Below are positions 10,227 through 53,640 of a DNA stretch of 64,000 bases, one piece after another. Position numbers and translations under genes: made by a program. Position 1 is the stretch's first letter, and every line of letters starts with the position of its first letter. Below the pieces are notes generated by a model that had not been told where the DNA came from, ran no database searches, and saw nothing but the letters and a program-made list of their open reading frames with translations. The DNA comes from Candidatus Oxydemutatoraceae bacterium (lineage in GTDB: Bacteria; Pseudomonadota; Gammaproteobacteria; Poriferisulfidales; Oxydemutatoraceae): contig OZ244779.1 in NCBI GenBank assembly GCA_965219575.1, forward strand, positions 1,800,352 through 1,864,351, in the 5' to 3' direction.

Positions 10227-10979
10227 GGTACTTGACTAGTTTAGGGACAAAATCCCACTCAAATATCCCTTACCATCTTCATTAGCATATCATACTTTTG
10301 GGAGGCTGAAAGGTGCCTGTGATTGAATCGCCACTCGCATTCTTTTAGATGAAGATGGAAATGTTTTCTCGACACGCCGCAGAACTTTGTTAATCTCCTT
10401 TTTGCCCATCCCCAAAAGTTTTCAATGCCATTGATATGTCTAGTACCACTGCCCAGTGTCTTTGAATGATTGATGCGGTAGTGTTTGTATCCATTCAACA
10501 CCAACCCGCCATAAGCTCTCCATTTGTCTGTGTATATAGTACTCTGATGTCCCACTAAACGCTTGATAATAGGTCGTATCCCGCTCTTTGAAGCATTTCG
10601 TATCACCTGCGTATAGACCTTCCCATCTCTTTTTAATATGCCGAATACCGGTACTTTGTTCGGTGCACCTCTACCTCTTTTGTCTCCCTTTTTGCGACCA
10701 CCGAAGTAGGACTCATCCAACTCTACCTCGCCGGAGAATACGCTCGTCTTCTCGCAGTGTTGTGCAATTCTTTCTCGGATTATATTGACATATCTATTCA
10801 CTGTATTTCTATTGACCCCGGCTGCTTGTGCGATTTGGGTTGCACTCAAATCAAGGGCAAAATACCTTACAATTTGCCTTATTTTCCTGTTTGAAATATG
10901 TGCCCCTCTAAAATGCCTGTTAGGTGTTGTCATTACTAGTTATTTTATCAAATCGTACTCCCTAAACTAGTCAAGTACC
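10227..10979 (-). mobile_element. IS1595-family insertion sequence, 753 bp. It has perfect 21-bp terminal inverted repeats GGTACTTGACTAGTTTAGGGA. An 8-bp target-site duplication TAATTAAG lies at 10219-10226 and 10980-10987.
   Basis: The inverted repeats were read directly at 10227-10247 and 10959-10979. The flanking 8-mer is identical on both sides. The single internal ORF is an IS1595-type transposase. Confidence 0.9.
10259..10933 (-). CDS. IS1595-family (ISXO2-like) transposase
   Basis: 224-aa protein with an N-terminal HTH region (ATQIAQAAGVNRNTVNRY). It carries the characteristic YTDKWRAYGGL and INGIENFWGWAKRRL motifs of IS1595 transposases. Confidence 0.85.
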   Translation of the reverse strand: MTTPNRHFRGAHISNRKIRQIVRYFALDLSATQIAQAAGVNRNTVNRYVNIIRERIAQHCEKTSVFSGEVELDESYFGGRKKGDKRGRGAPNKVPVFGILKRDGKVYTQVIRNASKSGIRPIIKRLVGHQSTIYTDKWRAYGGLVLNGYKHYRINHSKTLGSGTRHINGIENFWGWAKRRLTKFCGVSRKHFHLHLKECEWRFNHRHLSASQKYDMLMKMVRDI

Positions 10980-13264: not shown

Positions 13265-13269
13265 CTGTA

Positions 13270-13560
13270 GGGGCAGTATAAAGCCGCCGATTGAGCCGGT
13301 AGGTCAATCGGCAACTCTGATGTCTGCCCTTAAGTACCGTCCAGAATAACCGTAACCGCTTGTGCCATTTGGTTTTGGTTTCCATAAATCGGGTGGATGA
13401 ATGTATAAATCGTGCCGACCAACGCGTTGCGGGCGGACATGTCGTAGGGGCGGACTTACATGTCCGCCTGCCCCTACAGTCCATAAAATACTTTTTCAAC
13501 AGCCCCACATACCATAATAGAAAATATCTTACGGCTTTAATACTAGTTATTGTTTCTGAG
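13270..13560. repeat. Mosaic intergenic repeat array made of modules A (CCGATTGAGCCAGTAGGTCAATCGG palindrome), B (GTAGGGGCGGAC...GTCCGCCC palindrome), C (catccaatttatggaaaccaaaacc...gcgcaagcggtt) and D (ggctgttgaaaaagt).
   Basis: The same modules recur at nine or more other loci in the window. Confidence 0.8.
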
Positions 13561-18459: not shown

Positions 18460-18800
18460 GGCTGTGCAGACATGCCGGGGCTGTTGAAAAATACCGTTTG
18501 GCACGGATAATGTTTTTATACGCAGTTTATACACAAAATTTAAGTTTACCTACCGTAGGGGCAGACTAACATGTCTGCCCGTAACGAATTGCTCCTGCAT
18601 GATTTATACATTTATTCATCCAATTTATGGAAACCAAAACCAAATGGCGCAAGCGGTTGAGGCTGTGCAGAACGGCAATTTAGGGCGGACATACAAGTCC
18701 GCCCTACAGTTGGTTTGCGTAATTAGATGGCGCAAGCGGTTGCAGTTGTGCAAAAACAGTACTTTTTCAACAGTCCCACGCTACAACTACCTCGTCGGGG
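18460..18800. repeat. Mosaic intergenic repeat array (modules D, B, C, B-like, C, D)
   Basis: ctgttgaaaaatacc, gtaggggcagactaacatgtctgccc and catccaatttatggaaaccaaaaccaaatggcgcaagcggtt were read directly. Confidence 0.75.
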
Positions 18801-20146: not shown

Positions 20147-20228
20147 TTTATTGCCCCGACTTGTCTGCCGATTGCAGAATGTTAAATCTGCCGCTACAGA
20201 TACCTAGTATACACACCCGCTATAACCA

Positions 20229-20253
20229 TTCGTCGGATATTTGCTACCGCTCA
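20229..20253 (+). promoter_or_regulatory. Conserved 25-nt motif TTCGTCGGAWATTTGCTACCGYTCA, copy 1 of 2. It lies 94 nt upstream of the 20348 start codon.
   Basis: Identical apart from two positions to 21259-21283. That copy lies 96 nt upstream of the 21380 start. Confidence 0.5.
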
Positions 20254-20347
20254 TTGAATTTAGTAAAGCCACATATTTCGAAAAAGGATACCCTGTGACT
20301 GATTTGCTATAAGGCATCAATTTACATATAATTCAGAGGAGAAGACA

Positions 20348-20575
20348 ATGAACACAGTAATATCGTTATTAGAAAAAATCCCCGGTGCCTCTAATGAGGA
20401 AGTTTTAGAGGTTGCTACCAAATTGCGCAGAACCGATGATTTGGTAGCTCATAAAGATTTAGAAACGATCATAGCGAAACTAGAAGCACGACTGATCAAG
20501 CAGATGTATGCTGTGGGCGGAGTAACCGTTGCAATAACGCTCACAGGTGTCGGATTGATGATCCAGTTTTTATGA
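20348..20575 (+). CDS. DUF1640-like small membrane protein with a coiled-coil region and a C-terminal TM helix
   Basis: 75 aa. The C-terminus is hydrophobic (AVGGVTVAITLTGVGLMIQFL). It resembles the neighbouring DUF1640 paralogs. Confidence 0.5.
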   Translation: MNTVISLLEKIPGASNEEVLEVATKLRRTDDLVAHKDLETIIAKLEARLIKQMYAVGGVTVAITLTGVGLMIQFL

Positions 20576-20585
20576 TGAAGCAATA

Positions 20586-20745
20586 CCATAGAACCGCCGA
20601 TTGAGCCAGTAGGTCAATCGGCAATACAAAGCCGCCGATTGAGCCAGTAGGTCAATCGGCAATACAAAGCCGCCGATTGAGCCAGTAGGTCAATCGGCAA
20701 TTATGATGTGCGCCCGATAGGTTGATCGGCGTTACATTGTTCAGG
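20586..20745. repeat. Tandem array of three perfect 38-bp module-A palindromic units plus one degenerate unit (REP-like)
   Basis: acaaagccgccgattgagccagtaggtcaatcggcaat appears three times, then gcgcccgataggttgatcggcg. Confidence 0.85.
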
Positions 20746-20759
20746 ACTACGATAATAAT

Positions 20760-21074
20760 TTAACCCATGCGTAACAACGCGATGATGACACCGGTAAAAC
20801 CGGCACCTATAACACATATAGCCACAATGCTTTCTACATATAGCCACGATAATCTTCTCTCAACTATACCGATATGCTTTTCAACTATACCTATACGCCT
20901 CTCAACGGCATCAAAACGAGCGTCTATTTTATCAAGGACTTCTTGCATTGACATCGATACTTGTCGGTCAATCGCACGCGCCGTTATCTCCGCTTGCGTT
21001 CTCGACATTCCTGCTTGTTCCAATTCGTGCATCGTGTTAAAAGTCTCCGTGCTTCGGTTGATCGTTGTATTCAT
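20760..21074 (-). CDS. DUF1640 family protein
   Basis: 104 aa. The FNTMHELEQAGMSRTQAE motif is shared with the 53231-53491 paralog. It has a C-terminal TM helix. Confidence 0.65.
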   Translation of the reverse strand: MNTTINRSTETFNTMHELEQAGMSRTQAEITARAIDRQVSMSMQEVLDKIDARFDAVERRIGIVEKHIGIVERRLSWLYVESIVAICVIGAGFTGVIIALLRMG

Positions 21075-21076
21075 TT

Positions 21077-21215
21077 TTACTCCTTTGAATTATATGTTAA
21101 TCAATGCCCTAGAGCAAACTAAGGGATAGCCTATCTCACCCTGTAGCACGATTTTCCTAATTTTGATGAACAGCCCTAAATACCCGACGAACGGTTTTAT
21201 ATAAAGGGAATGTAG
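21077..21215 (-). promoter_or_regulatory. Diverged copy of the ~145-nt upstream element E (see 53495-53640)
   Basis: ctcctttgaatta...cccgacgaacggttttatataaaggg aligns with the 5' and 3' parts of the other two copies. Confidence 0.45.
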
Positions 21216-21258
21216 GACATAGGGGTTACTTTACGGTTTTAACAACCTAAAAGTAGCT

Positions 21259-21283
21259 TTCGTCGGAAATTTGCTACCGTTCA
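21259..21283 (+). promoter_or_regulatory. Conserved 25-nt motif, copy 2 of 2
   Basis: Same motif as at 20229-20253, at the same distance from the start codon. Confidence 0.5.
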
Positions 21284-21379
21284 CCGGAAATATAACAAAG
21301 TACTTCTTTTATAGGTCAAAATCGGACTAATCTTTGTTATTCAAGTTTATAAGTCAAACGATTAGGAGGAATTATTAAC

Positions 21380-23485
21380 ATGATGGAAACTTTCAGATCT
21401 AAAACAGATACTATCATCGAGGTACCGCAAGATTGGGTTGCTTTGTATGTAAAAGAGAATCCCGAAGCTATGGAGATATTAAACACGCATAAAATCTATA
21501 ACGATGTTTCATATCTCAATGCCGAGCGTGGATTAGATCCGATTACTCGACAAAAACTGAGCATATTTAGGATACGCCATTTAGCCGATAAAAACCGCAG
21601 AAACCCGTGTGCGATTGCCCGCGCCGCATCGCCGTGGTGGGCGAAACAAAGACTGACCAGCACAAATACCACGCTTAGAATCTATAAAGTTTTGCAAACA
21701 AAGAATATACAAACAGTTGAAGATCTAGCCGCTTGGACAACCGAAAAATTGCACGAGCAAACACCTTTCGGCTACAAAACTTTATACAACCTCTGCATTT
21801 TCTTAAATAAAATCATCGGCGATAATCCGATAGCCGACAAAAAACAAACTCGGGATGGTGATATTGACGACGCGCTTATACGCGACGCAATAGCCGAACC
21901 GGACAAACTCAAACAGCTGATGAAAATACTGCACTACACAGATAACTGCAAAGATCCGTGTAAGTTGGCGCGTTTGGCTCTACCGTGGTTGGGCAAATGG
22001 AAGCTGATAGACACAAACTTTCCCAAAGCACCTATAGAAGTTATGAGGAGAGACGGTATCGAAACAATCTCGGATCTTGCAACATGCTCCCCGGAAAGAT
22101 TACTCGGCAAGAGAATGTTCGGGCGTAAGTCTCTGCACATTATTCTAAATTGCTTAAATACCGCACTGCTCGGAAAGCTAATATCCGATATAGATTATCC
22201 GGCAAATGTCGATTTGATACCGAACTCGAAGGTCTCTATACACCTTAGGCTCGGCTTCATTGAAAATCTAAGATGTTTTTTGTCTTCGCTCTATCCCGTT
22301 GATCTCTATATTTTTACGCGTCGGACGGCATTTGAAGCTACATTTCAAACTATACAAAAAATTTCGGATACCTGCGGCAAGTCGATCGTATATGTCACTT
22401 TAAGCCAAGCTGCGATGATAAAGAATTTTAGGAATTCTCTCTTAGGGCATATCTTCAGGCAAAAAATCATACGGCTATCGGAGGAGGCCGATTTTCCATT
22501 GTCTTTAGATCAAATAGAAACTATGGATCTATGGTTCAGCGGCATCCACTCGCATCGAACATTTTTCGGAAATCTAATCGGCGCAGTGAATGAGCGCGGT
22601 ATACGCGTCGTTAAAATCGGCAACAAATATTATCTCGGTTCGATTGAGCAGTTGGTTTGGAAGCGTACCGTAGAGGCGGCGAAAGCATTATTATCTTCGT
22701 CCGTAGACAAAGGGTGGAGTGAGACCGAAGCCTTTTTACGGGTGCAAAGATTGTTGCCCGACGGTGCCAAGCAATTCAAAAATCTATTGTGGGATTATGC
22801 CTCCGATTTATGCTACTTTAAAATTAATCCCGACGGTACGCGCACATTGATAGACTACGGGAAAGGACTGCACAAAACTATCAAAGTAATCCTTTCCGAA
22901 TCCGATTCGCCGATGCACTACGATGAAATCATCAAGGCGATAAAACTTAAGCTGGGGCTAAATCTGACTATGCTACAAGTATGTCCGGCGGCAAATAGTG
23001 TCGGTCTTGCCTTTAGAAAGGGGCTGTACGGTCTTGACAAACATATACCTTTCTCCGACAAACAGATTGCTCGTATCTGTCGTGCAGCCGAATCTATCGT
23101 CTACGCCGATAGGGCAAAAAAGCAGTGGCATTGTTTTGAAATACTCTCTAAATTGCCGGAACAAGCCGATGAGACCTTCGACAAGTTAGATATCCGTTTG
23201 CTAAACATCGTGCTTTCTAAATCCCGGAGATTGAGCTATCTTAACAGAATGGTCTGGACAACGACCGAAGGTTACAACAAAGGAGAAAAACGTCTGAACA
23301 AAACTCAAGCAATCATCGCTATGATCAAAAATGCCGGACATCCGTTGACGGGAAGCGAAATCAAAGCGCGATTACAAAAAGTAACCGGTGTCAATAAAAT
23401 TTTGCATATACCGAAGCATCCGTCTTTAATTCGCATCGCACCCGGTGTTTGGGATGTTAAGGACAAGGATGTACCGAATAGTTAG
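21380..23485 (+). CDS. Hypothetical 701-aa protein with two tandem RpoA alphaCTD-like helix-hairpin-helix modules and two or three HARE-HTH-like winged-helix modules
   Basis: Two ~80-aa modules (CAIARAASPWWAKQRL...NIQTVEDLAAWTTEKL...FGYKTLYNL and CKLARLALPWLGKWKL...GIETISDLATCSPERLL...FGRKSLHIIL) follow the alphaCTD pattern of RpoA. The C-terminal segments ...GHPLTGSEIKARLQKV...LIRIAPGVWDV and ...MHYDEIIKAI...AFRKGLYGL follow the HARE-HTH pattern. Confidence 0.7.
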   Translation: MMETFRSKTDTIIEVPQDWVALYVKENPEAMEILNTHKIYNDVSYLNAERGLDPITRQKLSIFRIRHLADKNRRNPCAIARAASPWWAKQRLTSTNTTLRIYKVLQTKNIQTVEDLAAWTTEKLHEQTPFGYKTLYNLCIFLNKIIGDNPIADKKQTRDGDIDDALIRDAIAEPDKLKQLMKILHYTDNCKDPCKLARLALPWLGKWKLIDTNFPKAPIEVMRRDGIETISDLATCSPERLLGKRMFGRKSLHIILNCLNTALLGKLISDIDYPANVDLIPNSKVSIHLRLGFIENLRCFLSSLYPVDLYIFTRRTAFEATFQTIQKISDTCGKSIVYVTLSQAAMIKNFRNSLLGHIFRQKIIRLSEEADFPLSLDQIETMDLWFSGIHSHRTFFGNLIGAVNERGIRVVKIGNKYYLGSIEQLVWKRTVEAAKALLSSSVDKGWSETEAFLRVQRLLPDGAKQFKNLLWDYASDLCYFKINPDGTRTLIDYGKGLHKTIKVILSESDSPMHYDEIIKAIKLKLGLNLTMLQVCPAANSVGLAFRKGLYGLDKHIPFSDKQIARICRAAESIVYADRAKKQWHCFEILSKLPEQADETFDKLDIRLLNIVLSKSRRLSYLNRMVWTTTEGYNKGEKRLNKTQAIIAMIKNAGHPLTGSEIKARLQKVTGVNKILHIPKHPSLIRIAPGVWDVKDKDVPNS

Positions 23486-30135: not shown

Positions 30136-30139
30136 CGAC

Positions 30140-30850
30140 AACCACCGATTGAGCTTGTAGGGGCGGACTTATATGTCCGCCCGAACACGCGTCGTGTTAG
30201 CATAAATAAAATCGTACGCCATCCAATTCATGAAACCAAAACCATCCCGGCGTAAGCGGTTGAGCTTGTGCAGAACGGTATCGTTTTGGGCAGACACACA
30301 GGTCTGCCCCTACGACTCGGTGGTTATCGTAAATTCAATGGCGCAAGCGGTTGGATTTTTGCGATGCCAATACTTTTTCAACAGCCCCACATAAGACTGT
30401 TGAAAAAGTATTTTCATAGAGTGGTAGGGGCGGACTTATATGTCCGCCCGAAACGTATCATGTTTGCGCGATTAACGCGTTCACCCATTAATATTATGGA
30501 AACCATTATTTGTTGGCGCAGGTGGTTGGTGTCGTGCAGAACAGCACTTAAGGGCAGACATCAGAGTTGCCGATTGACCTACCGGCTCAATCGGCGGCTT
30601 TATACTGCCCCTACAACTCAGTGGTTATCGTAAATTTAATGGCGCAAGCGGTTGGATTTTTGCGATGCCAATACTTTTTCAACAGCACCATCGTATCTGC
30701 GCTGTTTTATACATTCATCCATCCAATTTATGGAAACCATAATCGGGTGGCGCAAAGCAGCTGGTGTTGCGCGTAACAGTACTTAAGGGTAGACATCAGA
30801 ATTGCCGATTGACCTACCGACTCAATCGGCGGTTTTATCCTGCCTCTACG
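30140..30850. repeat. Large mosaic intergenic repeat array. It holds multiple copies of modules A, B, C and D.
   Basis: gtaggggcggacttatatgtccgccc occurs twice. The ccgattgacctaccggctcaatcgg palindrome occurs twice. The catccaat...gcgcaagcggtt module occurs about four times. The tactttttcaacagcccc / ctgttgaaaaagta inverted pair is also present. Confidence 0.8.
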
Positions 30851-31936
30851 CTAGGTAAACACATTATTCTTGCAAAGATATTCGCTCATTCTCGCTTGAC
30901 ATTCTGCTAACCGCTTTCTTGAGAGCTCACAGTAAGTGGAATCTATATCAATACCTAGATAATGGCAATCCTCTTCCATAGCGGCAATAGCCGTTGTGCC
31001 GCTCCCGCTATACGGGTCCAGAACGATGCCGTTCTTCGGTGAAAGCAGTTTTATAATTTCTTTGATAATTGAAAGAGGAAATATAGCACTGTGTTTATTT
31101 CCGGGAATTGATTCAACCGACGAAATAATCACATCCTTTTTCATTTTCTTTCCATGTATTTTAATAATAGTGTAACCGTTCTTCTCGATCTGGCTTTTAC
31201 GCCCCCCTTCTTGCCCTCCGAAAGCCTCTGCGTGTATTCCGCGAATCTTCATACGAAATCCCTCTATTTTAGATTCTTTTACTTCTTCAGTAACCTCGTC
31301 GAGAGATTTATGCGCTTTTCTTTTCAGCTCCGAAGATAAATCCGAATTTTCAATCAATGTCCTATATCTTTCTCCTAATCTATTTGAAGGCTTATGCCGT
31401 TTTCTTTCGTCTACCTCGTTAAAAAATTTATCGGGGTTGTAATAATATTTTGTACCTTTTACAAAATGAAAAAATGGTTCCGTGCTACTTACCAGACGCC
31501 GCCCGAATTGCCTCGGTGTGGGGTTTCTCTTTACCCAAGTTATTTCATTGACAAGCTTCACACTATGGTCATTAGTTGCTTTTATGGCAAATCTATACGG
31601 CACAAGTAAAAGCGAACCATTCAGATATTTATCACCGATGTTATAAACGATATTTCCCGAAGGTTTTACTACTCTGACAATTTCCGAAAATACTTCAAGT
31701 AGAGAGTCAATATAAGACTCAACCGTTTTTTCGTGACCGGTCCCGATTCCCATTCCGTTATAATTTCGTTGCATATAGTACGGTGGGGATGTCACCACTA
31801 AATCAATACTATTATCCGGTAACTGCTTCAGCAAAAAAGCGGCATCTCCACACTGTATTGAATCTATTAGGCAATTCATCCGGCTTTTATGTGAAAGACC
31901 CTTTTGGGATTTTTCTAATTCTATAAAAGAACTCAT
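30851..31936 (-). CDS. Beta-class amino-DNA methyltransferase (N6-adenine or N4-cytosine). It appears to be an orphan.
   Basis: Motif IV VTSPPYY lies near the N-terminus. Motif I VLDPYSGSGTT lies near the C-terminus. GC content is low. No restriction endonuclease ORF is adjacent. Confidence 0.8.
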   Translation of the reverse strand: MSSFIELEKSQKGLSHKSRMNCLIDSIQCGDAAFLLKQLPDNSIDLVVTSPPYYMQRNYNGMGIGTGHEKTVESYIDSLLEVFSEIVRVVKPSGNIVYNIGDKYLNGSLLLVPYRFAIKATNDHSVKLVNEITWVKRNPTPRQFGRRLVSSTEPFFHFVKGTKYYYNPDKFFNEVDERKRHKPSNRLGERYRTLIENSDLSSELKRKAHKSLDEVTEEVKESKIEGFRMKIRGIHAEAFGGQEGGRKSQIEKNGYTIIKIHGKKMKKDVIISSVESIPGNKHSAIFPLSIIKEIIKLLSPKNGIVLDPYSGSGTTAIAAMEEDCHYLGIDIDSTYCELSRKRLAECQARMSEYLCKNNVFT

Positions 31937-32004
31937 GTCTCACCCTTGTTGGATATATTTATCCATCGTTTCTTTACCATGTTTATAAGTTTCAATAATT
32001 TAGA

Positions 32005-32160
32005 CACCATTTTCTCCCATTGATTAAAAATTGTAAATAGTTCTTGTGCACACAATCTCGCAATATTAGCCGATATCAAAGCCCAAGAATTCATTATCCG
32101 ATGAACGGTTGTATTTGAGTATATAAAAGGTGCTCGACGGTTGGATTATGCAGTAATACG
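32005..32160 (-). promoter_or_regulatory. Upstream element E, copy A. It lies 5' of the methyltransferase gene.
   Basis: About 85% identical over about 145 nt to 53495-53640. It contains a gtgcac-centred palindrome. Confidence 0.5.
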
Positions 32161-32164
32161 CTAT

Positions 32165-32235
32165 GCGACTGTTGAACCACAAAACCGCCGATTGAGCCAG
32201 TAGGTCAATCGGTGTCACATTGTGCAGAACCTTAG
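32165..32235. repeat. Module-A REP-like palindrome plus the cattgtgcagaacc tail
   Basis: aaaaccgccgattgagccagtaggtcaatcggtgtcacattgtgcagaacc. Confidence 0.75.
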
Positions 32236-32408: not shown

Positions 32409-35240
32409 ATGAGAAAGCAACTGAAAATAACAATCTCGGCACTATGTTTAGTCATTTTTACAATAGCAGAAACCAATGCTTTTATGATGACAAACTCTTA
32501 TCCATCTAGCAAAACATTAGCTGCGCAGTCGGTAAATAATACCGGAATGAATACCTACGAGGCTATAATGCTTCAACAGGTACAGCAAAATTTCAATCCT
32601 GTAGGGATTTGGCAACTTACAGCAGCCGAAGCTACAGGATTTCAATGTTCCGTTGATGTTGATATCGATATTAATGATCTTCTTGACTTTTCTCAAGTAA
32701 ACACAGAGCTTGATGCTGTGGTGACATCTAATAGATTAAGTATTGTAAATAGACAAACATCAGCAGTATATACGGAAATCCGCAGACATCCGCCCAATCG
32801 ATATATACTCGAAAACAGGGGAAGCTTCTCTCAATTTGTGAATGGCCTCTTAGTTCGAGTGGTAGGAAGGGATGCAGTAGACCTTACTCTTATCTCTGAT
32901 GAGGAAGTAGTAGGAACAGGTGTTGTAACCGCAACCGTAACTGCAGAAGCGATAAACTTTGAAGTTCGTTGCTCTGCTACTTACACGATAGCGGCAAAAA
33001 AAATTAGTTCCCCCCGTTTATCTAAGCTTTCTTTATCTACGGGAACACTGCATCCGAACTTTGACGGCACAGTCTTTAGGTATTTTGCAGCCGTTCCCAA
33101 TAATACTCGACAAATTACGCTGAGATTGAATGCCGAGGAGAGTAACAACACGATCACCGTCAACGGCAATCGGATAACCGGAACTGCAACTATTCCCCTA
33201 GGTTCTAATACCGATACGATTACCGTAGGTATACGGACGGCAGACGGTAATAGAACAAATACTTACATCGTTGATATCATACGGCTTGCACAACGAAATT
33301 TTAATCCCGTAGGAACTTGGGAAACCACTGCGAGAGAAAATATAAACCTTCAATGTCCCTTGCTTCCCAATTTAAGTTTAAGCCGTGACGATTTTGACCC
33401 GATAGGCAGAGAGTACGATATAGTCATGACATCGGGCGGGTTAAACCTCATAGATAGAGTGGATTCGGAAACGTCTACCGAAATTGGCAGAAATATACCG
33501 AATCGTTATAGCTTGCAATACATTGAGAGAGAGTCTATATCCGAACAAGGTGTCACATTGACAATAGAAGGAACGAGCACTCTAGATTTTATCCTGATCT
33601 CCGATGAGGAAGCGATAGTTGCGGTTGTCAGGGACATAAAAGTGACGAGCCTCGAAAATATTCCCTGCCTTACATCGTATACGGTAAGCGCAAAAAAAGC
33701 CGCAATATCTACTGCTATCCTAAAAGATATTTCATTATCGGCAAGCACGCTTAACTCAATCTTCACCGGCTTAGTCAGGAATTATTCTGCAACCGTTGAC
33801 AGTGGTGTCGGCCAACTTGGGATAACGATTGAAACTTCCCATATAAATCAATCGGTCACGATAAACGGTACCACACTATCCAGAGGCTTAAATCGTAGTC
33901 AATTGATAAGTAGTACGGTACCGCTAAGCGTGGGTAACAATACGATCGTTATAGGAGTGACATCGGCGGACGGCATATTGACATCAAGCTACACTTTGCA
34001 AGTTATCCGTCGAAGCCCTGCTTTGATCGGATTGTCTTTATCTCCCGGAACGCTCAACCCCGGCTTTAGTAGAGAGAGATTAAGATATGCAGCAACCGTA
34101 GAGAGTGATATAGAACGAATTACACTAACTCCTACAGCCGATAGTGCCGGACATAGGGTCATCATTACCGCCAACGGAAGATCTATAAACGGAAATTCAG
34201 TTCCTTTGAATGTAGGAGACAATACCATAGCTATCTCGGTCACTACGCGAGACAGTCAAGCAACGACAAGATACACCTTAACTGTAAGGCGATTAGAACC
34301 CTGCTTGACCGACCTCTTCTTATCATCGGGATCACTCAGCCCAACCTTCGGTAATCCCAGTCAATGCAGTAATGCAGCGATACGATATGCGGCAACCGTA
34401 GAGAGTGATATAGAACGAATCACATTAACCCCTACAGCCAATAGTGCCACACATACAATCGCCATTACTGCCAACGGAAATTCTATAACCGGAAATACAG
34501 TTCCTCTGAATGTGGGAGACAATACTATAGCTATTTCAGTCACTACGCGAGACAGTCGAGCAACGACAAGATATGTCGTAACTGTAAGGCGATTAGAGCC
34601 CTGCTTGACCGACCTCTCTCTATCGTCGGGATCACTCAGCCCGACCTTCATAACATGCTCGGATGAAACGGTAAATTACCGAGCAATCGTGAGAAACAAT
34701 GTAAGCCAAATTGAAATAACGGCTACGGCAAATAGTATCGCACATACGATTACTTTCAACAGTAATCAAAATAGTACGGTACCGCTAAGCGTAGGCGACA
34801 ATACGATTACCGTATCGGTAACAACGGCAGACGGTATGGCTAGAAAAGATTACAACTTAGTTATAAGACGTTTAAGTACGGCAACTTTAACCGGACTAAC
34901 AGTGGAAGTAAATTCGCAAATGCTAGAACTAAACCCTAACTTCAGCCTTATCAACTTAGACTACAGAATAAATGTAGAAAATACTATGACCCTTGTTACT
35001 ATACAACCTACGGCCTCGGCCGGTCGCATCATCAGGGTACGCTATACACCGGACGATGGCACCGCAATTGACCGTCTCGTCTCGAGTGGCGATACGGTTA
35101 CCATAACGCCATTGTTCTATGGTAAGAATAATGTCTACATCGATGTTATGCACAACGGTGCTATGGAGAGATATTCACTAGCCGTGATTATAGGTGTTAT
35201 TCTGCGTATAAAATTATTTTTAGAAGGTGCCTTGCAATAA
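32409..35240 (+). CDS. Secreted 943-aa protein with a signal peptide. It has a duplicated N-terminal module and six or more cadherin-like beta-sandwich domains. It ends with the C-terminal motif RIKLFLEGALQ.
   Basis: MRKQLKITISALCLVIFTIAETNA is a signal peptide. Repeated units of the form LSxLSLSxGTLxPxF...RYxA.V...I.VGDNTI.I.VT..DG...YTL.V.R are present. Two of the units are near-identical. Confidence 0.8.
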   Translation: MRKQLKITISALCLVIFTIAETNAFMMTNSYPSSKTLAAQSVNNTGMNTYEAIMLQQVQQNFNPVGIWQLTAAEATGFQCSVDVDIDINDLLDFSQVNTELDAVVTSNRLSIVNRQTSAVYTEIRRHPPNRYILENRGSFSQFVNGLLVRVVGRDAVDLTLISDEEVVGTGVVTATVTAEAINFEVRCSATYTIAAKKISSPRLSKLSLSTGTLHPNFDGTVFRYFAAVPNNTRQITLRLNAEESNNTITVNGNRITGTATIPLGSNTDTITVGIRTADGNRTNTYIVDIIRLAQRNFNPVGTWETTARENINLQCPLLPNLSLSRDDFDPIGREYDIVMTSGGLNLIDRVDSETSTEIGRNIPNRYSLQYIERESISEQGVTLTIEGTSTLDFILISDEEAIVAVVRDIKVTSLENIPCLTSYTVSAKKAAISTAILKDISLSASTLNSIFTGLVRNYSATVDSGVGQLGITIETSHINQSVTINGTTLSRGLNRSQLISSTVPLSVGNNTIVIGVTSADGILTSSYTLQVIRRSPALIGLSLSPGTLNPGFSRERLRYAATVESDIERITLTPTADSAGHRVIITANGRSINGNSVPLNVGDNTIAISVTTRDSQATTRYTLTVRRLEPCLTDLFLSSGSLSPTFGNPSQCSNAAIRYAATVESDIERITLTPTANSATHTIAITANGNSITGNTVPLNVGDNTIAISVTTRDSRATTRYVVTVRRLEPCLTDLSLSSGSLSPTFITCSDETVNYRAIVRNNVSQIEITATANSIAHTITFNSNQNSTVPLSVGDNTITVSVTTADGMARKDYNLVIRRLSTATLTGLTVEVNSQMLELNPNFSLINLDYRINVENTMTLVTIQPTASAGRIIRVRYTPDDGTAIDRLVSSGDTVTITPLFYGKNNVYIDVMHNGAMERYSLAVIIGVILRIKLFLEGALQ

Positions 35241-35351
35241 TTCGGGTTGACACTTTTCACGATCAGCACAAACATATGAACAGTTTTCCTTAACAATATC
35301 CAAATATAGAATCAGATTGCATATTTGTCCAAAATCGGATAGGATAAAAGT

Positions 35352-36515
35352 ATGAAGTATATTCCTCGAATCCTCTTAAAATCCCTTAAATCAATGTCTA
35401 AACAGTACCCTGTTGTAGCTGTGCTAGGTCCCAGACAGTCCGGAAAAACAACAATAACCCAAAAAGCCTTTCCTTCAAAACATTATATTTCTTTAGAGGA
35501 CTTAGACAACAGACAGTTTGCGCAACAAGATCCTAGAGGTTTCTTGGATAGCTATAAAAAAGGAGCTATTATTGATGAAGCCCAAAGATGCCCCGATTTG
35601 CTCTCCTATATTCAAACACATGTTGATCAAAACAAAAAAAAAGGACAATTTATTATCACCGGCTCTAATCAATTCTTACTAGAAGAAAAAATCACTCAAT
35701 CTCTAGCCGGACGGGTTTCCTTATTAAGGCTTCTTCCCTTATCCCTTCAGGAGCTAAAACAAGCTAAAAAAACAACTCCCTTAAACAAAATGATTTTTAA
35801 GGGATTTTACCCTCAACTCCATGTAGAAAATATTGAAATCGGTTCATTTTTTAATAATTACATAGAAACCTATGTAAGCAAGGATGTCCGCTTGATAAAA
35901 AATATAAGCAATTTATCTTCGTTTAACACTTTTATTAAACTATGCGCTAACCGAGCCGGACAACTGCTTAACTTGCAGTCTTTAGCAAACGACTGTGGCA
36001 TCACCCAAAATACGGTCAAGTCATGGATTTCTATTCTAGAGAGTAGCTTTATCTTAAAAAGAATATACCCCTATTATAAAAACTTTAATAAAAGGCTCGT
36101 AAAATCTCCAAAGATATACTTTTATGACACCGGTTTGCTTTGCCGATTATTATCTGTCAAAAAAGCGCAGGATCTAGCTTTTCATGCTCTAAAAGGTTTT
36201 ATTTTTGAAAACTTGATTTTCTCGGAGATAGAAAAATATTTTTTTAATCAAGGACAGAAAGCTCCACTTTATTTTTGGAGAGATAAAACAGGTCATGAAA
36301 TTGATTTTTTAATTGACAGTGACCATTTAAAGATAATAGAGGTTAAATCCGCTCAAACTTTTTCAACGGATTTCTTAAAGAACATCACTTATTTTTCTAA
36401 AATCAATCCAACTAAAAAAAGAAACTACTTAATTTATGCCGGAAAAGAAAAGCAAATTAGAGGCGATTGCTCTATTTTGCCTTGCTGGGACATCGATAAA
36501 ATTTTAGGTACTTAA
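35352..36515 (+). CDS. AAA-family ATPase with a C-terminal DUF4143 domain
   Basis: The Walker A reads VLGPRQSGKTT and the Walker B reads IIDEAQ. The C-terminal region is DUF4143-like. The gene is AT-rich. Confidence 0.75.
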   Translation: MKYIPRILLKSLKSMSKQYPVVAVLGPRQSGKTTITQKAFPSKHYISLEDLDNRQFAQQDPRGFLDSYKKGAIIDEAQRCPDLLSYIQTHVDQNKKKGQFIITGSNQFLLEEKITQSLAGRVSLLRLLPLSLQELKQAKKTTPLNKMIFKGFYPQLHVENIEIGSFFNNYIETYVSKDVRLIKNISNLSSFNTFIKLCANRAGQLLNLQSLANDCGITQNTVKSWISILESSFILKRIYPYYKNFNKRLVKSPKIYFYDTGLLCRLLSVKKAQDLAFHALKGFIFENLIFSEIEKYFFNQGQKAPLYFWRDKTGHEIDFLIDSDHLKIIEVKSAQTFSTDFLKNITYFSKINPTKKRNYLIYAGKEKQIRGDCSILPCWDIDKILGT

Positions 36516-36519
36516 GGCT

Positions 36520-36800
36520 GTTGAAAAAGTGCGGGCATCGCACATTAGAACCGCCGATTGAGCCGGTAGGTCAACCGGCAATTCTGATGTCTATCCTTAA
36601 GTACCGTCATGCGCAATACCAGCCGCCCTGTGCCAACAAATTATGGTTTCCATAGATTAAATGGATGAATGTGTAAATCGTGCAGGCGCAACGCGTTACG
36701 GGCAGAACAGAGCCGCCGATTGAGCCAGTAGGTCAATCGGCAATTTTGATGTCCGCCCCTACCACTCTATGAAATACTTTTTCAACAGCCCCGCGACACG
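36520..36800. repeat. Mosaic intergenic repeat array (modules D, A, C, A, B, D)
   Basis: ggctgttgaaaaagtgcgggcatcgcac. ccgccgattgagccggtaggtcaaccggcaat occurs twice. A C module is present. Confidence 0.8.
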
Positions 36801-36913: not shown

Positions 36914-38053
36914 TTATAGTTTGATGCCGTCGAAAAAGTCTTTGATTACCGGCGCAAATTGATCAGCATCCACGAGAAAAGAATCGTGCCCGTAGTTTGA
37001 ATCCAATTCAACCAAGTCTACCGACTTACCGGCTTTTTGAAGTCCTTCGGCGATTTCACGCTGCTGTTCGAAAGGAAATAATATATCGGTGTCGACACCG
37101 ATAACCAAAGAATGCTTGGCGTGTACGTGTGCAAGTCCGGCATTGACCGAACCGCCGTGCTCGGCAACATCGAATAAGTCCATTGCGCGCGATAAATAGA
37201 GGTAGCAGTTTGCGTCAAACTGGGAAACAAATTTTCGGGCGTTGTAATCCAAATAAGATTCTATTTCAAACTCTAGACCGAATGGCTCAAGCGAACGTCG
37301 CTTGGCCGAGACTCTGGCTCGGTTAAAACGGTAGCGCCATTCGGAAGCCGAACGATACGACATTAAGCCTAGTTTCCTCGCCAGTACCATCCCGCAACTA
37401 GGTTCGTCATCGATAGGATAATGTCCATCGTTCCAGTTCGGGTCGCAGCGTATGATTTCTCGCTGCAAAGAACGCACCGCAATGGTAAAAGGCAATGCCC
37501 TGGTTGCAGCAGAAATGCAAACAAAGTAGTCCAACTCTTGCGGATACTGCAACGCATAAGCCAAGGCACTCATCCCACCCATAGAAGCACCGACTACTGC
37601 GAGCAAATGATCTATGCCCAGATCGTTCAGCGCATGGTGCGCGGATTTCGCAATATCCTCTATACTCAGTTCGGGAAAATCGATACCGTATGCTTTACCG
37701 GTTCGTGGATCGACCGATCGGGGTGATGTGGAACCGTAACAACTCCCTAATGAATTGACGCAAATTACATAAAAATGATCGGTATCTATGGGTTTGTTCG
37801 AACCTACCATATACTCCCACCACCCGACGGATGTATCTTCGGGCGACGAACAGGCGTGCGCAGTAGGCGATAAACCGGTGAACAGCAATACGACATTGTC
37901 GTGGTTGGGTGACAATTGACCCCATGCTTCGTACGCGATTTGTACCTCGGGCAATCGTCCGCCTCGGTACATTAAAAAGTCGCTGGTTCCGTAATCGCCG
38001 GACAATTTGATACACTTCGTCGCCGGAGGAATGTAGACTGCATTTTCTTCCAT
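36914..38053 (-). CDS. metX: Homoserine O-acyltransferase (MetX family alpha/beta hydrolase)
   Basis: GASMGGM nucleophile elbow. The overall pattern and the 379-aa length fit MetX. Confidence 0.85.
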   Translation of the reverse strand: MEENAVYIPPATKCIKLSGDYGTSDFLMYRGGRLPEVQIAYEAWGQLSPNHDNVVLLFTGLSPTAHACSSPEDTSVGWWEYMVGSNKPIDTDHFYVICVNSLGSCYGSTSPRSVDPRTGKAYGIDFPELSIEDIAKSAHHALNDLGIDHLLAVVGASMGGMSALAYALQYPQELDYFVCISAATRALPFTIAVRSLQREIIRCDPNWNDGHYPIDDEPSCGMVLARKLGLMSYRSASEWRYRFNRARVSAKRRSLEPFGLEFEIESYLDYNARKFVSQFDANCYLYLSRAMDLFDVAEHGGSVNAGLAHVHAKHSLVIGVDTDILFPFEQQREIAEGLQKAGKSVDLVELDSNYGHDSFLVDADQFAPVIKDFFDGIKL

Positions 38054-41864: not shown

Positions 41865-42060
41865 TTATATATCGGGCTGTTGAAAAAGTGCGGCATCGTA
41901 CGAATCCAATCACTTGCGCCATTTGGTTTTGGTTTCCATAAATTGGATGGATGAATGTATAAATCGTGTAGGCACAACGCGTTACGGGCGGACATGTTAG
42001 TCCGCCCCTACAGGTGGGTTGGATAATTATGCGGCGCAAGCGGTTACGGTTTTGCAGAAC
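41865..42060. repeat. Repeat modules D, C, B and C, located immediately 5' of the IS3-family transposase fragment
   Basis: ggctgttgaaaaagtgcggcatcgtacgaatc...ggtttccataaattggatggatgaatgtataaatcgtg...gggcggacatgttagtccgcccctac. Confidence 0.75.
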
Positions 42061-43179: not shown

Positions 43180-43450
43180 TGCCACAGTAAACTGCCGATT
43201 GAGCCAGTAGGTCAATAGGCGTGACATTGTGCAGAACCTTAGCGTGCTAGGTAGCTCATACATTACAAAATACAATATCCGCCGGTTGAGCCAGTAGGTC
43301 AATCGGCGTGACATTGTGCAGAACTTTAGGGGCTGCTGAAAAAGTGCGGACATCGCACAAATCCAACCGCTATGCGCCATTTGATTTTGGTTTCCATAAA
43401 TTGGATGAATGAATAAAATAGTGCAGATACGCAGCGACCACCCCGTCAGG
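43180..43450. repeat. Mosaic repeat array (A, A, D, C)
   Basis: aactgccgattgagccagtaggtcaataggcgtgacattgtgcagaacc occurs twice. ggggctgctgaaaaagtgcggacatcgcac...ggtttccataaattggatgaatg follows. Confidence 0.8.
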
Positions 43451-46649: not shown

Positions 46650-47045
46650 GTGTTATTGTAGCTTATATGGGGCTGTTGAAAAAGTGCCGGCATTGCACAA
46701 AACTTGTGCAGACACGACGGGGCTGTTGAAAAAGTATCGTCAGCGTGCAACCGTGTAACCGCTTGCGTCGTGAATTTATAATAACCACCAAGCCGTAGGG
46801 GCAGACCTGTGTGTCTGCCCTTAAGTGCCGTTCTGCACGACACCAACCGCTTGCGCCAACAAATAATGGTTTCCATAAATTGGGTGGATGAATGTATAAA
46901 TCATGCAGGCGCAACGCGTTACGGGTAGAACAGAGCCGCCGATTGAGCCAGTAGGTCAATCGGCAATTTAATTTTAGTCCGCCCCTACCACTCTGTAAAA
47001 TACTTTTTCAACAGCCCCACGCCACAACCACCGATTGCGCTTGCG
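46650..47045. repeat. Mosaic repeat array (D, D, B, C, A, B, D)
   Basis: ggggctgttgaaaaagtgccggcattgcac appears twice. Also present are gtaggggcagacctgtgtgtctgccc, ggtttccataaattgggtggatgaatgtataaatc and ccgccgattgagccagtaggtcaatcggcaat. Confidence 0.8.
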
Positions 47046-53230: not shown

Positions 53231-53491
53231 TTATTTTATCGATAACAATGCAAACATAATGCCGACCAGACTAACAATGATGCCGGCAAAACCAATGCCG
53301 ATAATGGTGTTTGCAATGATATTATCTTTTTTAATTTGGTCCAATTTTTCGAGTACCAACTGAATACCATTCGATACTTGGCTATCAACCGCACGCGCAG
53401 TGGTCTCGGCTTGAACTCGTGACATGCCTGCTTGTTCCAGTTTATGCATAGTATTGAACACCTCTTCGCTTGAATTAAATGGCTTAGACAT
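53231..53491 (-). CDS. DUF1640 family protein (paralog of 20760-21074)
   Basis: FNTMHKLEQAGMSRVQAE plus a C-terminal TM helix. Confidence 0.65.
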   Translation of the reverse strand: MSKPFNSSEEVFNTMHKLEQAGMSRVQAETTARAVDSQVSNGIQLVLEKLDQIKKDNIIANTIIGIGFAGIIVSLVGIMFALLSIK

Positions 53492-53494
53492 TAT

Positions 53495-53640
53495 TATCTC
53501 CTATTGCTTAAAAATTGTAAATAGTGCGTGCGCACGCGACCTTATTCGCAATATTAGCCGATATGAAAACCCGAGAATTCGTTATCCGACGAACGGTCGT
53601 ATTTTGGTATATAAAAGGTATCCGACGGTTGGGTTGTACT
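53495..53640 (-). promoter_or_regulatory. Upstream element E, copy B. It starts 4 nt from the DUF1640 start codon, and its first bases supply the RBS (aggaga). It contains a perfect 12-bp palindrome GCGTGCGCACGC.
   Basis: Aligned by eye with 32005-32160 (about 85% identity) and with 21077-21215. Confidence 0.55.

What the first reader, a model, noticed from the sequence alone, without database searches (positions are those of the whole stretch)
53495..53640. A ~145-nt conserved element (E) sits 5' of three minus-strand genes
Copies at 53495-53640 and 32005-32160 are about 85% identical. A diverged copy lies at 21077-21215. The element sits upstream of the two DUF1640 paralogs (53231-53491 and 20760-21074) and of the orphan DNA methyltransferase (30851-31936). 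It carries a central palindrome: GCGTGCGCACGC in B and a gtgcac-centred one in A. It carries an AT-rich tatataaaagg segment. In copy B it supplies the RBS. It could be a shared promoter/operator, a 5'-UTR regulatory RNA, or a small mobile promoter cassette.
Basis: seen in the sequence. Interest (0 to 1): 0.55.

Follow-up and report, generated by a model that had tools for sequence, protein, structure and literature searches.

The report
Conserved promoter-leader captured by a methyltransferase
The ~140-nt element is the conserved upstream control region (promoter plus untranslated leader) of a small membrane-protein gene family in a sponge-associated bacterium; one copy lost its gene to an incoming restriction-modification module and now heads a DNA methyltransferase. 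This is an ordinary kind of feature with an instructive history.

Summary
Two of the three claimed copies are real. B (53492-53633) and A (32008-32146) are 81% identical (E=6e-36). Copy C shares only a ~15-20-nt box and the order of features.

The window comes from a 'Candidatus Porisulfidus' genome. The element (E) is found in at least nine other genomic contexts in related genomes. It always abuts the start codon of an 86-93-aa tail-anchored coiled-coil gene, whatever lies upstream. It is better conserved than four-fold degenerate sites.

E is not in Rfam, is not coding, and shows no mobile-element hallmarks. The pattern scan found two copies in each of three related genomes. It has no unusually stable global RNA fold. 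One short hairpin (the 'palindrome') keeps pairing through compensatory changes.

Copy A is E plus the first ~6 codons of the small gene, fused to a 25-codon stub whose stop overlaps the methyltransferase ATG. This layout is conserved in three genomes. Relatives carry a 370-aa ORF after the methyltransferase that the window has lost. Four mutually unrelated type II methyltransferases, two of them with a confirmed or candidate restriction partner, lie next to E-small-gene units.

Best reading: a lineage-specific promoter/5'-leader module that inserted restriction-modification genes reuse. The transcription start site is unresolved.

The parts
53492..53633 (-). Element E, copy B: the whole spacer between the LigT-like gene stop (53639) and the ATG of the 86-aa gene
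   Evidence: blastn against copy A; nhmmer E=2e-40; alignments with orthologous regions show conservation starting at CCCAACCGTC and ending at the ATG
53607..53618 (-). Invariant AT-rich box CCTTTTATATAC. It contains TATAC(C/T), a -10-like hexamer, and is the candidate distal promoter P1
   Evidence: Invariant in 12 canonical copies. The -35 is poor. In the variant copy L020b this box is replaced by a strong TTGACC-17-TATTTT match at the equivalent position
53582..53597 (-). Box ACCGTTCGTCGGATAA (core TTCGTCGGRTA). It overlaps a weak hairpin H1: 53590-53594 pairs with 53577-53581
   Evidence: The only element shared by A, B, C, D and the 701-aa gene upstream region; always in sense orientation, 95-121 nt before the ATG. 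One H1 pair breaks in 8 of 15 sequences
53549..53564 (-). Conserved block ATATCGGCTAATATTG
   Evidence: Alignments. It can pair with the downstream invariant block (P2, 84.5% of cells paired, no double-sided changes)
53526..53537 (-). Palindrome / hairpin H2 (GCGTGCGCACGC in B). Its loop or centre always holds RTG
   Evidence: Three of six pairs keep pairing through changes on both sides; 85.6% of cells paired, against 31-43% when the partner is slid. There are 9 sense-strand G-U cells against 3 A-C cells
53511..53524 (-). Invariant block CTATTTACAATTTT. It contains TACAAT (candidate -10, P3) and TTTACA (candidate -35 of TTTACA-17-GATAAT)
   Evidence: Invariant in canonical copies. TTTACA-17-GAYAAT is the only sigma-70-like match conserved in all copies. 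This is the only part of E kept after the natural deletion in L017
53489..53502 (-). Shine-Dalgarno AGGAG (53498-53502), AT-rich spacer and ATG (53489-53491) of the small gene
   Evidence: Read from the sequence; conserved GGAGA
53231..53491 (-). 86-aa tail-anchored coiled-coil protein gene (remote, sub-threshold DUF1640/CCDC90-like)
   Evidence: Translation; 30 homologues; only 15 cluster representatives in 1.84 billion proteins; AlphaFold2 predicts a single long helix; Pfam results
32008..32146 (-). Element E, copy A. Box at 32119-32130, TTCATCGGATA at 32095-32105, H2 at 32044-32055, invariant block at 32027-32040, GGGAG at 32014-32018
   Evidence: blastn; nhmmer E=1e-36. A-type copies from three genomes form one clade
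31933..32010 (-). 25-codon stub ORF (MVSKLLKLINMVKKRWINISNKGET). It starts at the small gene's ATG position, and its TGA overlaps the methyltransferase ATG (ATGA)
   Evidence: Translation. The ORF is open and the same length in L006 and L014, but its residues are not conserved
30851..31936 (-). N6/N4 (beta-class) type II DNA methyltransferase, now solitary
   Evidence: Pfam PF01555 1.8e-45; PADLOC MTase_II 2e-55; 95.6% identical to the L006 protein
30136..30850 (.). Stack of dispersed repeat modules. It occupies the place of the 370-aa ORF (putative restriction partner, unverified) present in L006 and L014
   Evidence: Window and L006 are colinear except for this segment; sequence; ORFs
21075..21237 (-). 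Region C, upstream of the 104-aa paralogue. A distant relative at best: TATATA plus ACCGTTCGTCGGGTA (21181-21195), palindrome TGCTCTAGGGCA (21105-21116), TTGCTC-17-TATAAT (21089-21117)
20201..20347 (+). Region D, upstream of a 75-aa membrane-protein ORF. It is an inverted relative of C with box TTCGTCGGATA (20229-20239) and TTGCTA-17-TATAAT (20304-20332)

Best explanation
E is the lineage-specific cis-regulatory region (promoter plus ~120-nt 5' leader) of a small tail-anchored coiled-coil protein gene family in 'Candidatus Porisulfidus'. Copy B is the native arrangement. Copy A is a paralogous E whose gene was displaced by an inserted type II restriction-modification module. What remains in A is E, the first ~6 codons, and a 25-codon stub ORF that ends on the methyltransferase start codon, so E now drives the methyltransferase.

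Shown:
- A and B are homologous.
- E has a fixed position and fixed boundaries.
- E is under purifying selection.
- The A-type layout is conserved in three genomes.
- Restriction-modification genes recur next to E units.
- One hairpin (H2) is maintained by compensatory substitutions.

Inferred:
- Transcription starts in the distal AT-rich box (TATACT-type -10, weak -35).
- The transcript therefore begins near the TTCGTCGGATA box and carries hairpin H2 and the invariant AU-rich block next to the Shine-Dalgarno sequence.
- These leader features tune mRNA stability or translation of whatever cistron follows.
- A second, proximal start (TACAAT) is possible.
For: Homology and extent:
- A and B are homologous at E=6e-36, and homology extends into the first codons.

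Position and boundaries:
- E is present at every A/B-type small-gene locus recovered from related genomes (reduced to its last ~45 nt by a deletion at one L017 copy; not assessable at L021 and L025, whose contigs end inside E). The 5' boundary is the same although the upstream neighbour differs: LigT, a transposase, YhdP, DUF6940, an abhydrolase, or a restriction-enzyme gene.

Selection:
- E identity to copy B is 0.77-0.84 in relatives whose four-fold degenerate sites are 0.63-0.72 identical. Unrelated flanks align at about 0.5.
- The distal blocks are kept as well in A-type copies (methyltransferase downstream) as in B-type copies. The function of E is therefore independent of the gene it precedes.

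Hairpin H2:
- Three pairs show double-sided changes and 85.6% of cells are paired.
- Wobble pairs favour the sense strand.

Promoter position:
- In the E' copy of L020, the distal box is replaced by the best sigma-70 match of the whole set (TTGACC-17-TATTTT, 10.9 bits) at the same position relative to the TTCGTCGG box.

Origin of copy A:
- L011 has an intact E-small gene behind the same 122/134/379-aa gene trio that precedes the A-type E-stub-methyltransferase in L006.
- L022 shows the small gene cut to 33 codons in front of another methyltransferase.
- L020 has E-small gene-MTase-REase (PADLOC REase_II 3.8e-49) flanked by ~390-nt direct repeats.
- L008 has E-small gene-MTase321-223-aa ORF.
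Against: - No transcription start data exist.
- No candidate promoter has a convincing -35. The -10-like TATAC has C instead of T at its last position in B, L008 and L020a.
- The best conserved sigma-70-like match (TTTACA-17-GAYAAT) would start transcripts inside the coding sequence.
- C-type relatives carry a near-consensus promoter directly before the ribosome-binding site. That promoter would exclude the palindrome from the RNA.
- Leader folding is no more stable than shuffled sequence.
- Hairpin H1 is broken in about half of the copies.
- L017 keeps intact small-gene, MTase and REase ORFs after deletion of all but the last ~40 nt of E. The distal part is therefore dispensable at least where an upstream gene can read through.
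- The sequences are few and related, so covariation counts are weak statistics.
Confidence: 0.65

Rival explanations
1. E works mainly at the DNA level, as an array of binding sites for one or more transcription factors. The oriented TTCGTCGGRTA box and the palindrome overlap a proximal promoter (TTGC..-35 / TACAAT or TATAAT -10), and the mRNA has only a ~20-nt leader.
For: - The TTCGTCGGRTA box is the one feature shared by A, B, C, D and the 701-aa gene. At the 701-aa gene it occurs twice, 21 nt apart (two helical turns).
- C, D and L019 have near-consensus TTGCYN-17-TATAMT promoters whose -35 lies inside a sequence-conserved palindrome TGCYNTARGGCA.
- The last 40 nt of E, containing TACAAT, are what survives in L017.
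Against: - In A/B-type copies the palindrome sequence is not conserved: GCGTGCGCACGC, TTGTGTGCACAA, GACTGCGTGTGCGGTC, CTTGCATGAGGCAAG. It changes by compensatory substitutions, even between A and B in one genome.
- Spacing between TTGC and TACAAT is 14-15 nt, too short for sigma-70.
- Imperfections are mostly G-T on the sense strand.
- No regulator gene is linked to E.
Confidence: 0.2
2. E is a dedicated regulatory leader RNA with a coupled upstream ORF, hok/mok-like or attenuator-like. A 10-19-codon ORF starts at the RTG held in the H2 loop, is preceded by AAGG/AAGGAG, and ends 2 nt before or overlapping the main ATG. Opening of H2 would gate translation of the downstream, possibly toxic, membrane protein.
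For: - All 15 copies have ATG or GTG at the same loop position, with AAGG (or GGAG) 4-5 nt upstream.
- The ORF runs to within 2 nt of the main start in most B-type copies, or overlaps it.
- H2 covaries.
- The product is a small membrane-anchored protein found in defence-island-like neighbourhoods.
Against: - All three frames are open for 8-13 codons in this AT-rich stretch.
- The peptide is not conserved beyond nucleotide-invariant positions, and its frame differs in the L020 type.
- No antisense promoter or terminator is evident.
- Folding stability is not exceptional.
- The protein (86-117 aa) is larger than typical type I toxins.
- No toxicity data exist.
Confidence: 0.1
3. E is a small mobile or repeat element (MITE/REP-like 'promoter cassette') that spreads through the genome, like the many other dispersed intergenic repeats of this organism.
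For: - The window is full of 30-150-nt dispersed intergenic repeats of similar identity.
- E occurs in front of unrelated genes: the small gene and the methyltransferase.
- E plus the small gene forms direct repeats around a restriction-modification unit in L020.
Against: - The pattern scan found only two copies in each of three related genomes, and a profile search finds two in the window.
- E is always oriented and positioned against a start codon.
- The 3' end of the A/B homology lies inside a coding sequence.
- There are no terminal inverted repeats or target duplications.
- A-type copies are one vertically inherited clade.
- E is absent from the viral and JGI metagenome collections.
Confidence: 0.04
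4. The similarity is a neutral remnant of a segmental duplication and has no function of its own.
For: A and B are only two copies, and the duplication included a piece of coding sequence.
Against: - E is more conserved than four-fold degenerate sites across genomes, while adjacent flanks are unalignable.
- Blocks of 12-14 nt are invariant.
- The A-type copy has stayed intact in three diverged genomes.
Confidence: 0.02

Closest known systems
Conserved promoter / 5'-UTR regions of paralogous bacterial gene families (ordinary cis-regulatory regions)
   Same: - Fixed orientation and distance to the start codon.
- Contains the Shine-Dalgarno sequence and -10-like boxes.
- Co-diverges with the gene family (B versus C).
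- Under purifying selection.
   Different: - Unusually long (~140 nt) and evenly conserved, with 12-14-nt invariant blocks.
- Retained intact after the native gene was replaced by a methyltransferase.
- The transcription start and any regulator are unknown.
Restriction-modification gene insertion with long target duplication (Furuta, Abe and Kobayashi 2010, PMC2853133)
   Same: In the relative L020, a type II MTase+REase pair is flanked by ~390-nt direct repeats (95-96% identical) made of E plus the small gene. No mobility gene lies inside the unit. The repeat length is in the range listed in that paper.
   Different: - The window's copy A has no second repeat on the far side of the methyltransferase. 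There the small gene is truncated rather than duplicated.
- The empty-site comparison required by the paper's criteria was available only loosely (L011 versus L006).
hok/mok-type translational coupling and type I toxin leaders
   Same: - A small membrane protein gene with a long conserved leader.
- A short overlapping or abutting upstream ORF.
- A hairpin at the upstream ORF start.
   Different: - No antisense RNA gene was found.
- No fold-back structure is evident and folding energy is unexceptional.
- The protein is larger and has a coiled-coil domain.
- The upstream ORF is not statistically supported.
C-box operators of controller (C) proteins in restriction-modification operons
   Same: A palindrome in the promoter region of an operon that, in several genomes, contains restriction-modification genes.
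   Different: - No helix-turn-helix C protein is encoded.
- The palindrome sequence is not conserved.
- The same element precedes small genes with no restriction-modification genes nearby (the peptidase S9 locus).

Membership tests
Any Rfam family (riboswitches, leaders, sRNAs) | Covariance-model match at or near the gathering score | tested here: not met
   No match at gathering score in the whole window. At E<=10 around both copies there were only a snoRNA hit (15 bits against 50) and a CRISPR-repeat hit outside E.
Structured cis-regulatory RNA (riboswitch-like) | Thermodynamically or evolutionarily supported multi-helix fold across the element | tested here: not met
   z-scores are -0.35, +1.27, +0.12, -1.05 and +0.05. 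The RNAalifold consensus is -9.6 kcal/mol. Only one short hairpin (H2) shows convincing compensatory change.
Single conserved RNA hairpin in a leader | Pairs maintained by changes on both sides, with strand-specific wobble | tested here: met
   H2: 3 of 6 pairs have double-sided changes and 85.6% of cells are paired, against 31-43% with slid partners. There are 9 G-U against 3 A-C cells. Caveat: 15 related sequences.
Sigma-70 promoter | -35 and -10 hexamers at 16-18 nt spacing, conserved among copies, upstream of the translated start | tested here: inconclusive
   TATACT and TACAAT are conserved -10-like hexamers without good -35 partners. The only full conserved match (TTTACA-17-GAYAAT) would start transcription inside the coding sequence.
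Sigma-70 promoter | Mapped transcription start | not testable with these tools
   No transcript data are available.
MITE / REP-type mobile repeat | Many dispersed copies, terminal inverted repeats or a REP hairpin, target-site duplication, insertion independent of gene starts | tested here: not met
   The pattern scan found two copies in each of three related genomes. There are two strong profile hits in the window. The ends CCCAACCGTC and ATGTCTAAA are not inverted repeats. E always abuts a start codon.
Protein-coding sequence across E | Reading frame conserved among copies | tested here: not met
   1-nt and 4-5-nt indels lie inside E between copies (alignment columns 136-141). ORFs over E differ between A and B.
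Transcription-factor operator (palindrome) | Conserved half-site sequence among co-regulated copies | tested here: not met
   Half-sites differ between A (TTGTG/CACAA) and B (GCGTGC/GCACGC) in the same genome, and among relatives. Half-sites are conserved only within the C/D type.
Restriction-modification insertion with long target duplication | R and M genes flanked by direct repeats longer than 30 bp that correspond to a single copy at the empty site, with no other mobility genes | tested here: inconclusive
   Met for the flanking repeats in L020 (372-762 and 2397-2766, 95-96% identical; MTase plus REase between them). An empty site in the same species was not available. The window's copy A has no second repeat.
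DUF1640 / CCDC90-like (PF07798), for the downstream proteins | Pfam match at the gathering score (33.5 bits) | tested here: not met
   B protein: no hit. C-type proteins and six relatives: 13.5-20.6 bits, mostly to profile positions 2-40. A family profile finds only 15 clusters in 1.84 billion proteins. This is a remote relation at most.
Type I toxin-antitoxin / hok-mok | Antisense or divergent small RNA complementary to the leader; toxic small membrane peptide | not tested
   No antisense promoter or terminator stood out on reading the opposite strand. Toxicity and RNA expression cannot be tested here.

The most novel reading that the evidence does not exclude
E plus the small membrane-protein gene is a dedicated 'landing pad and expression platform' for restriction-modification modules in Porisulfidus. 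Unrelated methyltransferase or restriction-modification cassettes integrate repeatedly just behind, or within, the small gene, by homologous recombination or long target duplication using E-small-gene as the handle. They are then expressed and controlled by E's leader, which has a covarying hairpin holding the start of a short upstream ORF. That would make E a new, portable post-transcriptional control module for defence genes.
Probability: 0.12. Interest if true: 0.55.

Novelty: new member of a known kind. Interest (0 to 1): 0.3.

Why it matters
- It shows how a solitary ('orphan') methyltransferase in an uncultured sponge symbiont came to be expressed. The methyltransferase sits on the promoter-leader of a displaced small gene, after losing the 370-aa ORF that still follows it in sister genomes.
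- It flags a small, lineage-restricted gene with its control region as a recurrent neighbour of restriction-modification genes (four of six locus types). This is a testable lead on how such modules insert and are expressed without their own promoters.
- For genome annotation, E marks true start codons of very short genes and one pseudogenised stub.
- E does not reveal a new class of RNA or mobile element.

Tried and rejected
- **Rfam.** Searched at gathering and permissive thresholds; nothing found.
- **Global RNA fold.** Rejected on z-scores.
- **Hairpin H1 (GTTCG/CGAAT).** It looked compensatory in A and L004, but one pair breaks in 8 of 15 copies and it is replaced by different hairpins in the L020 type.
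- **Coding potential of ORFs across E.** Rejected because of frame-breaking indels.
- **Mobile-element reading.** Rejected on copy number and boundaries.
- **Wider distribution.** The JGI metagenome scan gave only two chance hits. Viral contigs gave none for the DNA pattern or the protein. The phage database gave no match for the window.
- **Sequence look-alikes, considered by eye from memory only.** These included sigma-54 (-24/-12 spacing two bases short), FliA -10 (GCCGATAA versus TCGGATAA), Fur box, lac-operator-like CGGATAAC, DnaA box, and CsrA GGA-in-loop. None fitted in spacing or conservation. None is claimed.
- **Methyltransferase target site in the palindrome.** Rejected because A-type palindromes differ (GTGCAC, TGTACA, TGCGCA) while the enzyme is 89-96% conserved.
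- **AlphaFold2 of the small protein.** It gave one long helix (pLDDT 70, pTM 0.26), too featureless for fold search.
- **Short contig as a possible transcript (L025).** It is a metagenome scaffold and uninformative for 5' ends.

Full report
**Observation**

I read the three claimed sites and compared them.
- Copies B and A are clearly homologous. blastn aligns 53475-53635 with 31991-32147 at 80.7% identity over 161 columns, E=6e-36.
- The similarity begins at CCCAACCGTC, about 140 nt upstream of the ATG. It continues ~17 nt into the B coding sequence. Copy A has ATG GTG TCT AAA where B has ATG TCT AAG.
- Copy C is not a copy in the same sense. Only a 20-nt stretch matches A and B (E about 2-3). 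A profile built from 15 family members gives C E=0.017, no better than chance hits.
- C does have a real relative of its own. D (20221-20356) is an inverted copy upstream of a 75-aa membrane-protein ORF, 68% identical over 140 nt (E=2e-12).

**Organism and distribution**

- The window is a bacterial chromosome. It encodes citrate synthase, prolyl oligopeptidase and a LigT-like protein, among others. It is crowded with dispersed intergenic repeats.
- I scanned one genome per species with TTTATATAN{2,12}ACYGTTYRTCGGRTA. This gave six true hits, two in each of three genomes titled 'uncultured candidatus Porisulfidus sp.', plus four chance hits.
- JGI metagenomes gave two chance hits only. Viral contigs gave none.
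- The 86-aa protein has 30 close homologues. A profile of it finds only 15 cluster representatives among 1.84 billion proteins.
- Pfam PF07798 (DUF1640/CCDC90-like) appears only below threshold, at 13.5-20.6 bits against a 33.5-bit cut-off. It gives no hit at all for the B protein.
- AlphaFold2 predicts one long helix.

**E in related genomes**

- I fetched the loci of homologues. E precedes the small gene at every A/B-type locus where the upstream sequence could be read. Two exceptions: one L017 copy keeps only the last ~45 nt after a deletion, and the L021 and L025 contigs end inside E.
- The 5' boundary is the same each time, although the upstream neighbour differs: LigT, a transposase, YhdP, DUF6940, an abhydrolase, or a restriction-enzyme gene.
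- E identity to copy B is 0.77-0.84 in relatives whose four-fold degenerate sites are only 0.63-0.72 identical. Unrelated flanks score about 0.5.
- Invariant blocks are CCTTTTATATAC, ACC..GTTC, TCGGATA, CTATTTACAATTTT and GGAGA.
- Indels of 1 and 4-5 nt inside E exclude a conserved reading frame.

**RNA structure**

- There is no Rfam match.
- Five representative leaders fold no better than shuffled sequence, with z-scores from -1.05 to +1.27.
- The RNAalifold consensus is weak at -9.6 kcal/mol.
- I counted pairs on a 15-sequence alignment.
Three of its six pairs change on both sides (TTGC/GCAA, TTGT/ACAA, CTGC/GCAG, GACTGC/GCGGTC, CTTGC/GCAAG). It has 9 G-U cells against 3 A-C cells.
  - H1, around the TCGGATAA loop, loses one pair in 8 of 15 sequences.
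  - A five-pair stem next to the Shine-Dalgarno sequence (CUAUU/RRURG) is always pairable, but it varies on one side only.
- The evidence therefore supports one small sense-strand hairpin, not a structured riboswitch-like RNA. Copy B has shifted register to a perfect 12-nt palindrome.

**Promoter**

- Consensus scans and a position-weight scan over all copies give no clean answer.
- The only sigma-70-like match conserved everywhere is TTTACA-17-GAYAAT. Its -10 lies between the Shine-Dalgarno sequence and the ATG, so it would start transcripts inside the gene.
- TACAAT (inside the invariant block) and TATAC(T/C) (inside the distal invariant box) are -10-like hexamers without good -35 partners.
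- Two natural variants help.
  - In the E' copy of L020, the distal box is replaced by a strong TTGACC-17-TATTTT match at the equivalent position upstream of the TTCGTCGG box.
  - In L017, all but the last ~40 nt of E is deleted, while the small gene and the restriction-modification genes behind it stay intact.
- I favour a distal start with a ~120-nt leader, because that places the covarying hairpin in the RNA. A proximal start may exist as well. This step is inference.

**The shared box**

- TTCRYYGGRWA occurs six times in the window. All six are intergenic, all are in sense orientation, and all lie 95-121 nt before a start codon: at A, B, C and D, and twice, 21 nt apart, before the 701-aa ORF.
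- This count is circular, because the pattern was derived from those sites.
- The box is the only link between the A/B and C/D types. It could be a protein-binding site or the 5' end of the transcripts.

**What copy A is**

- In A, E is followed by a 25-codon ORF whose TGA overlaps the methyltransferase ATG.
- The same layout, with the ORF open but its residues not conserved, is present in L006 and L014. The three A-type elements form one clade.
- L006 and L014 carry a 370-aa ORF directly after the methyltransferase. It has no family match, so calling it a restriction partner is a guess.
- The window is colinear with L006 except that this ORF is replaced by ~715 nt of repeat modules.
- L011, in another genome, has an intact E-small gene behind the same 122/134/379-aa gene trio that precedes the A-type unit in L006.

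**Association with restriction-modification genes**

- Other loci show the same association.
  - L020: E-93-aa gene-MTase250-REase222 (PADLOC REase_II 3.8e-49)-E'-86-aa gene. The two E-gene units form ~390-nt direct repeats at 95-96% identity.
  - L022: the first small gene is cut to 33 codons before that methyltransferase.
  - L008: E-90-aa gene-MTase321-223-aa ORF, next to a CRISPR-like array.
  - L023: MTase297 lies just upstream.
- The three methyltransferases compared directly share only catalytic motifs.
- The L020 layout resembles 'insertion with long target duplication' described for restriction-modification systems (PMC2853133).
- Four of six locus types have an adjacent methyltransferase. 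I could not test this enrichment statistically.

**Interpretation**

- E is the promoter-leader of a narrow small-gene family. Copy A is that module after the gene was displaced by a restriction-modification insertion. E is retained because it now expresses the methyltransferase.
- The distal blocks are as well kept in A-type as in B-type copies. Their function therefore does not depend on the small gene.
- A DNA-level operator array remains a serious rival for the box and, in the C/D type, for the palindrome.
- A coupled upstream ORF starting in the H2 loop is present in all 15 copies, but it is not distinguishable from chance in this AT-rich stretch.
- A mobile-element reading and a neutral-remnant reading are rejected.

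**Novelty and verdict**

This is an uncatalogued but ordinary kind of feature: a lineage-specific cis-regulatory region containing one conserved hairpin. The reuse of E by restriction-modification genes is the most interesting aspect. Interest 0.3.

Noticed in passing
window 30136-30850: About 715 nt of stacked dispersed repeat modules (GGGCAGAC..GTCTGCCCCTAC, TAGGGGCGGACTTATATGTCCGCCC, the CCGATTGACCTAC..GGCTCAATCGG hairpin, GGAAACCAT..TGGCGCA). It sits exactly where sister genomes (L006 4245-5357, L014 4718-5830) have a 370-aa ORF after the methyltransferase. This looks like gene loss by repeat replacement.
   Followed up: partly
window 13281-13311, 20589-20727 (three in tandem), 30570-30601, 30805-30836, 32180-32212, 36548-36578, 36710-36740, 43189-43242, 43276-43329, 46933-46963: A ~30-nt hairpin repeat, CCGCCGATTGAGCCAGTAGGTCAATCGGC, is dispersed in intergenic regions in both orientations. 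It is REP-like or terminator-like. Three tandem copies separate the convergent C and D genes.
   Followed up: no
window 13266-13415 / 30466-30615; 30706-30837 / 36546-36677; 18574-18704 / 46799-46929; 18555-18659 / 41907-42011: Several 100-150-nt intergenic repeat pairs at 79-89% identity, mostly in inverted orientation. Repeated intergenic modules are common in this genome.
   Followed up: no
window 285-10178 and 10979-13264 (minus strand): A giant 3297-aa ORF and a 761-aa ORF built from 603-nt and 78-84-nt periodic repeats. They look like repetitive surface or adhesin-like proteins.
   Followed up: no
window 21259-21269 and 21280-21290 (+): Two tandem copies of the box (TTCGTCGGAAA, TTCACCGGAAA) lie 21 nt apart, 100-121 nt upstream of a 701-aa ORF (21380-23485). 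That ORF carries two RNA polymerase alpha-CTD-like domains.
   Followed up: partly
window 20221-20356 versus 21066-21199: The upstream regions of the 75-aa ORF (D, + strand) and the 104-aa paralogue (C, - strand) are 68% identical, including the first codons (MNT). This is a second case of an upstream region and gene start shared between different small membrane-protein genes.
   Followed up: partly
L020 372-762 and 2397-2766: Direct repeats of ~390 nt (95-96% identical), consisting of most of E plus the small gene, flank a type II MTase (874-1626) and REase (1626-2294). This resembles restriction-modification insertion with long target duplication.
   Followed up: partly
L008 195-903: Eleven copies of a ~36-nt repeat (GATTATAACATTTGAATTAGGGGTATCAGGACAAC) with a 66-67-nt period. 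This is a CRISPR-like array beside the E-small gene-MTase321-223-aa ORF unit. L022 has a TIR-domain gene and AAA_14/DUF4143 genes nearby, suggesting a defence-island setting.
   Followed up: no
L017 2459-2503; L018 2501-2775; L022 718-819; L017 about 4528 onward: Natural variants of the unit. In L017, E is deleted down to its last ~45 nt. The small gene is frameshifted in L018. It is truncated to 33 codons before a methyltransferase in L022. The second L017 copy has an in-frame stop.
   Followed up: partly
window 32409-36515 (+): Relative to L006, the window has about 4.7 kb extra between the abhydrolase gene (36914-38053) and E copy A. The extra segment holds a 943-aa cadherin-like repeat protein, a 387-aa ORF and repeats.
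   Followed up: no
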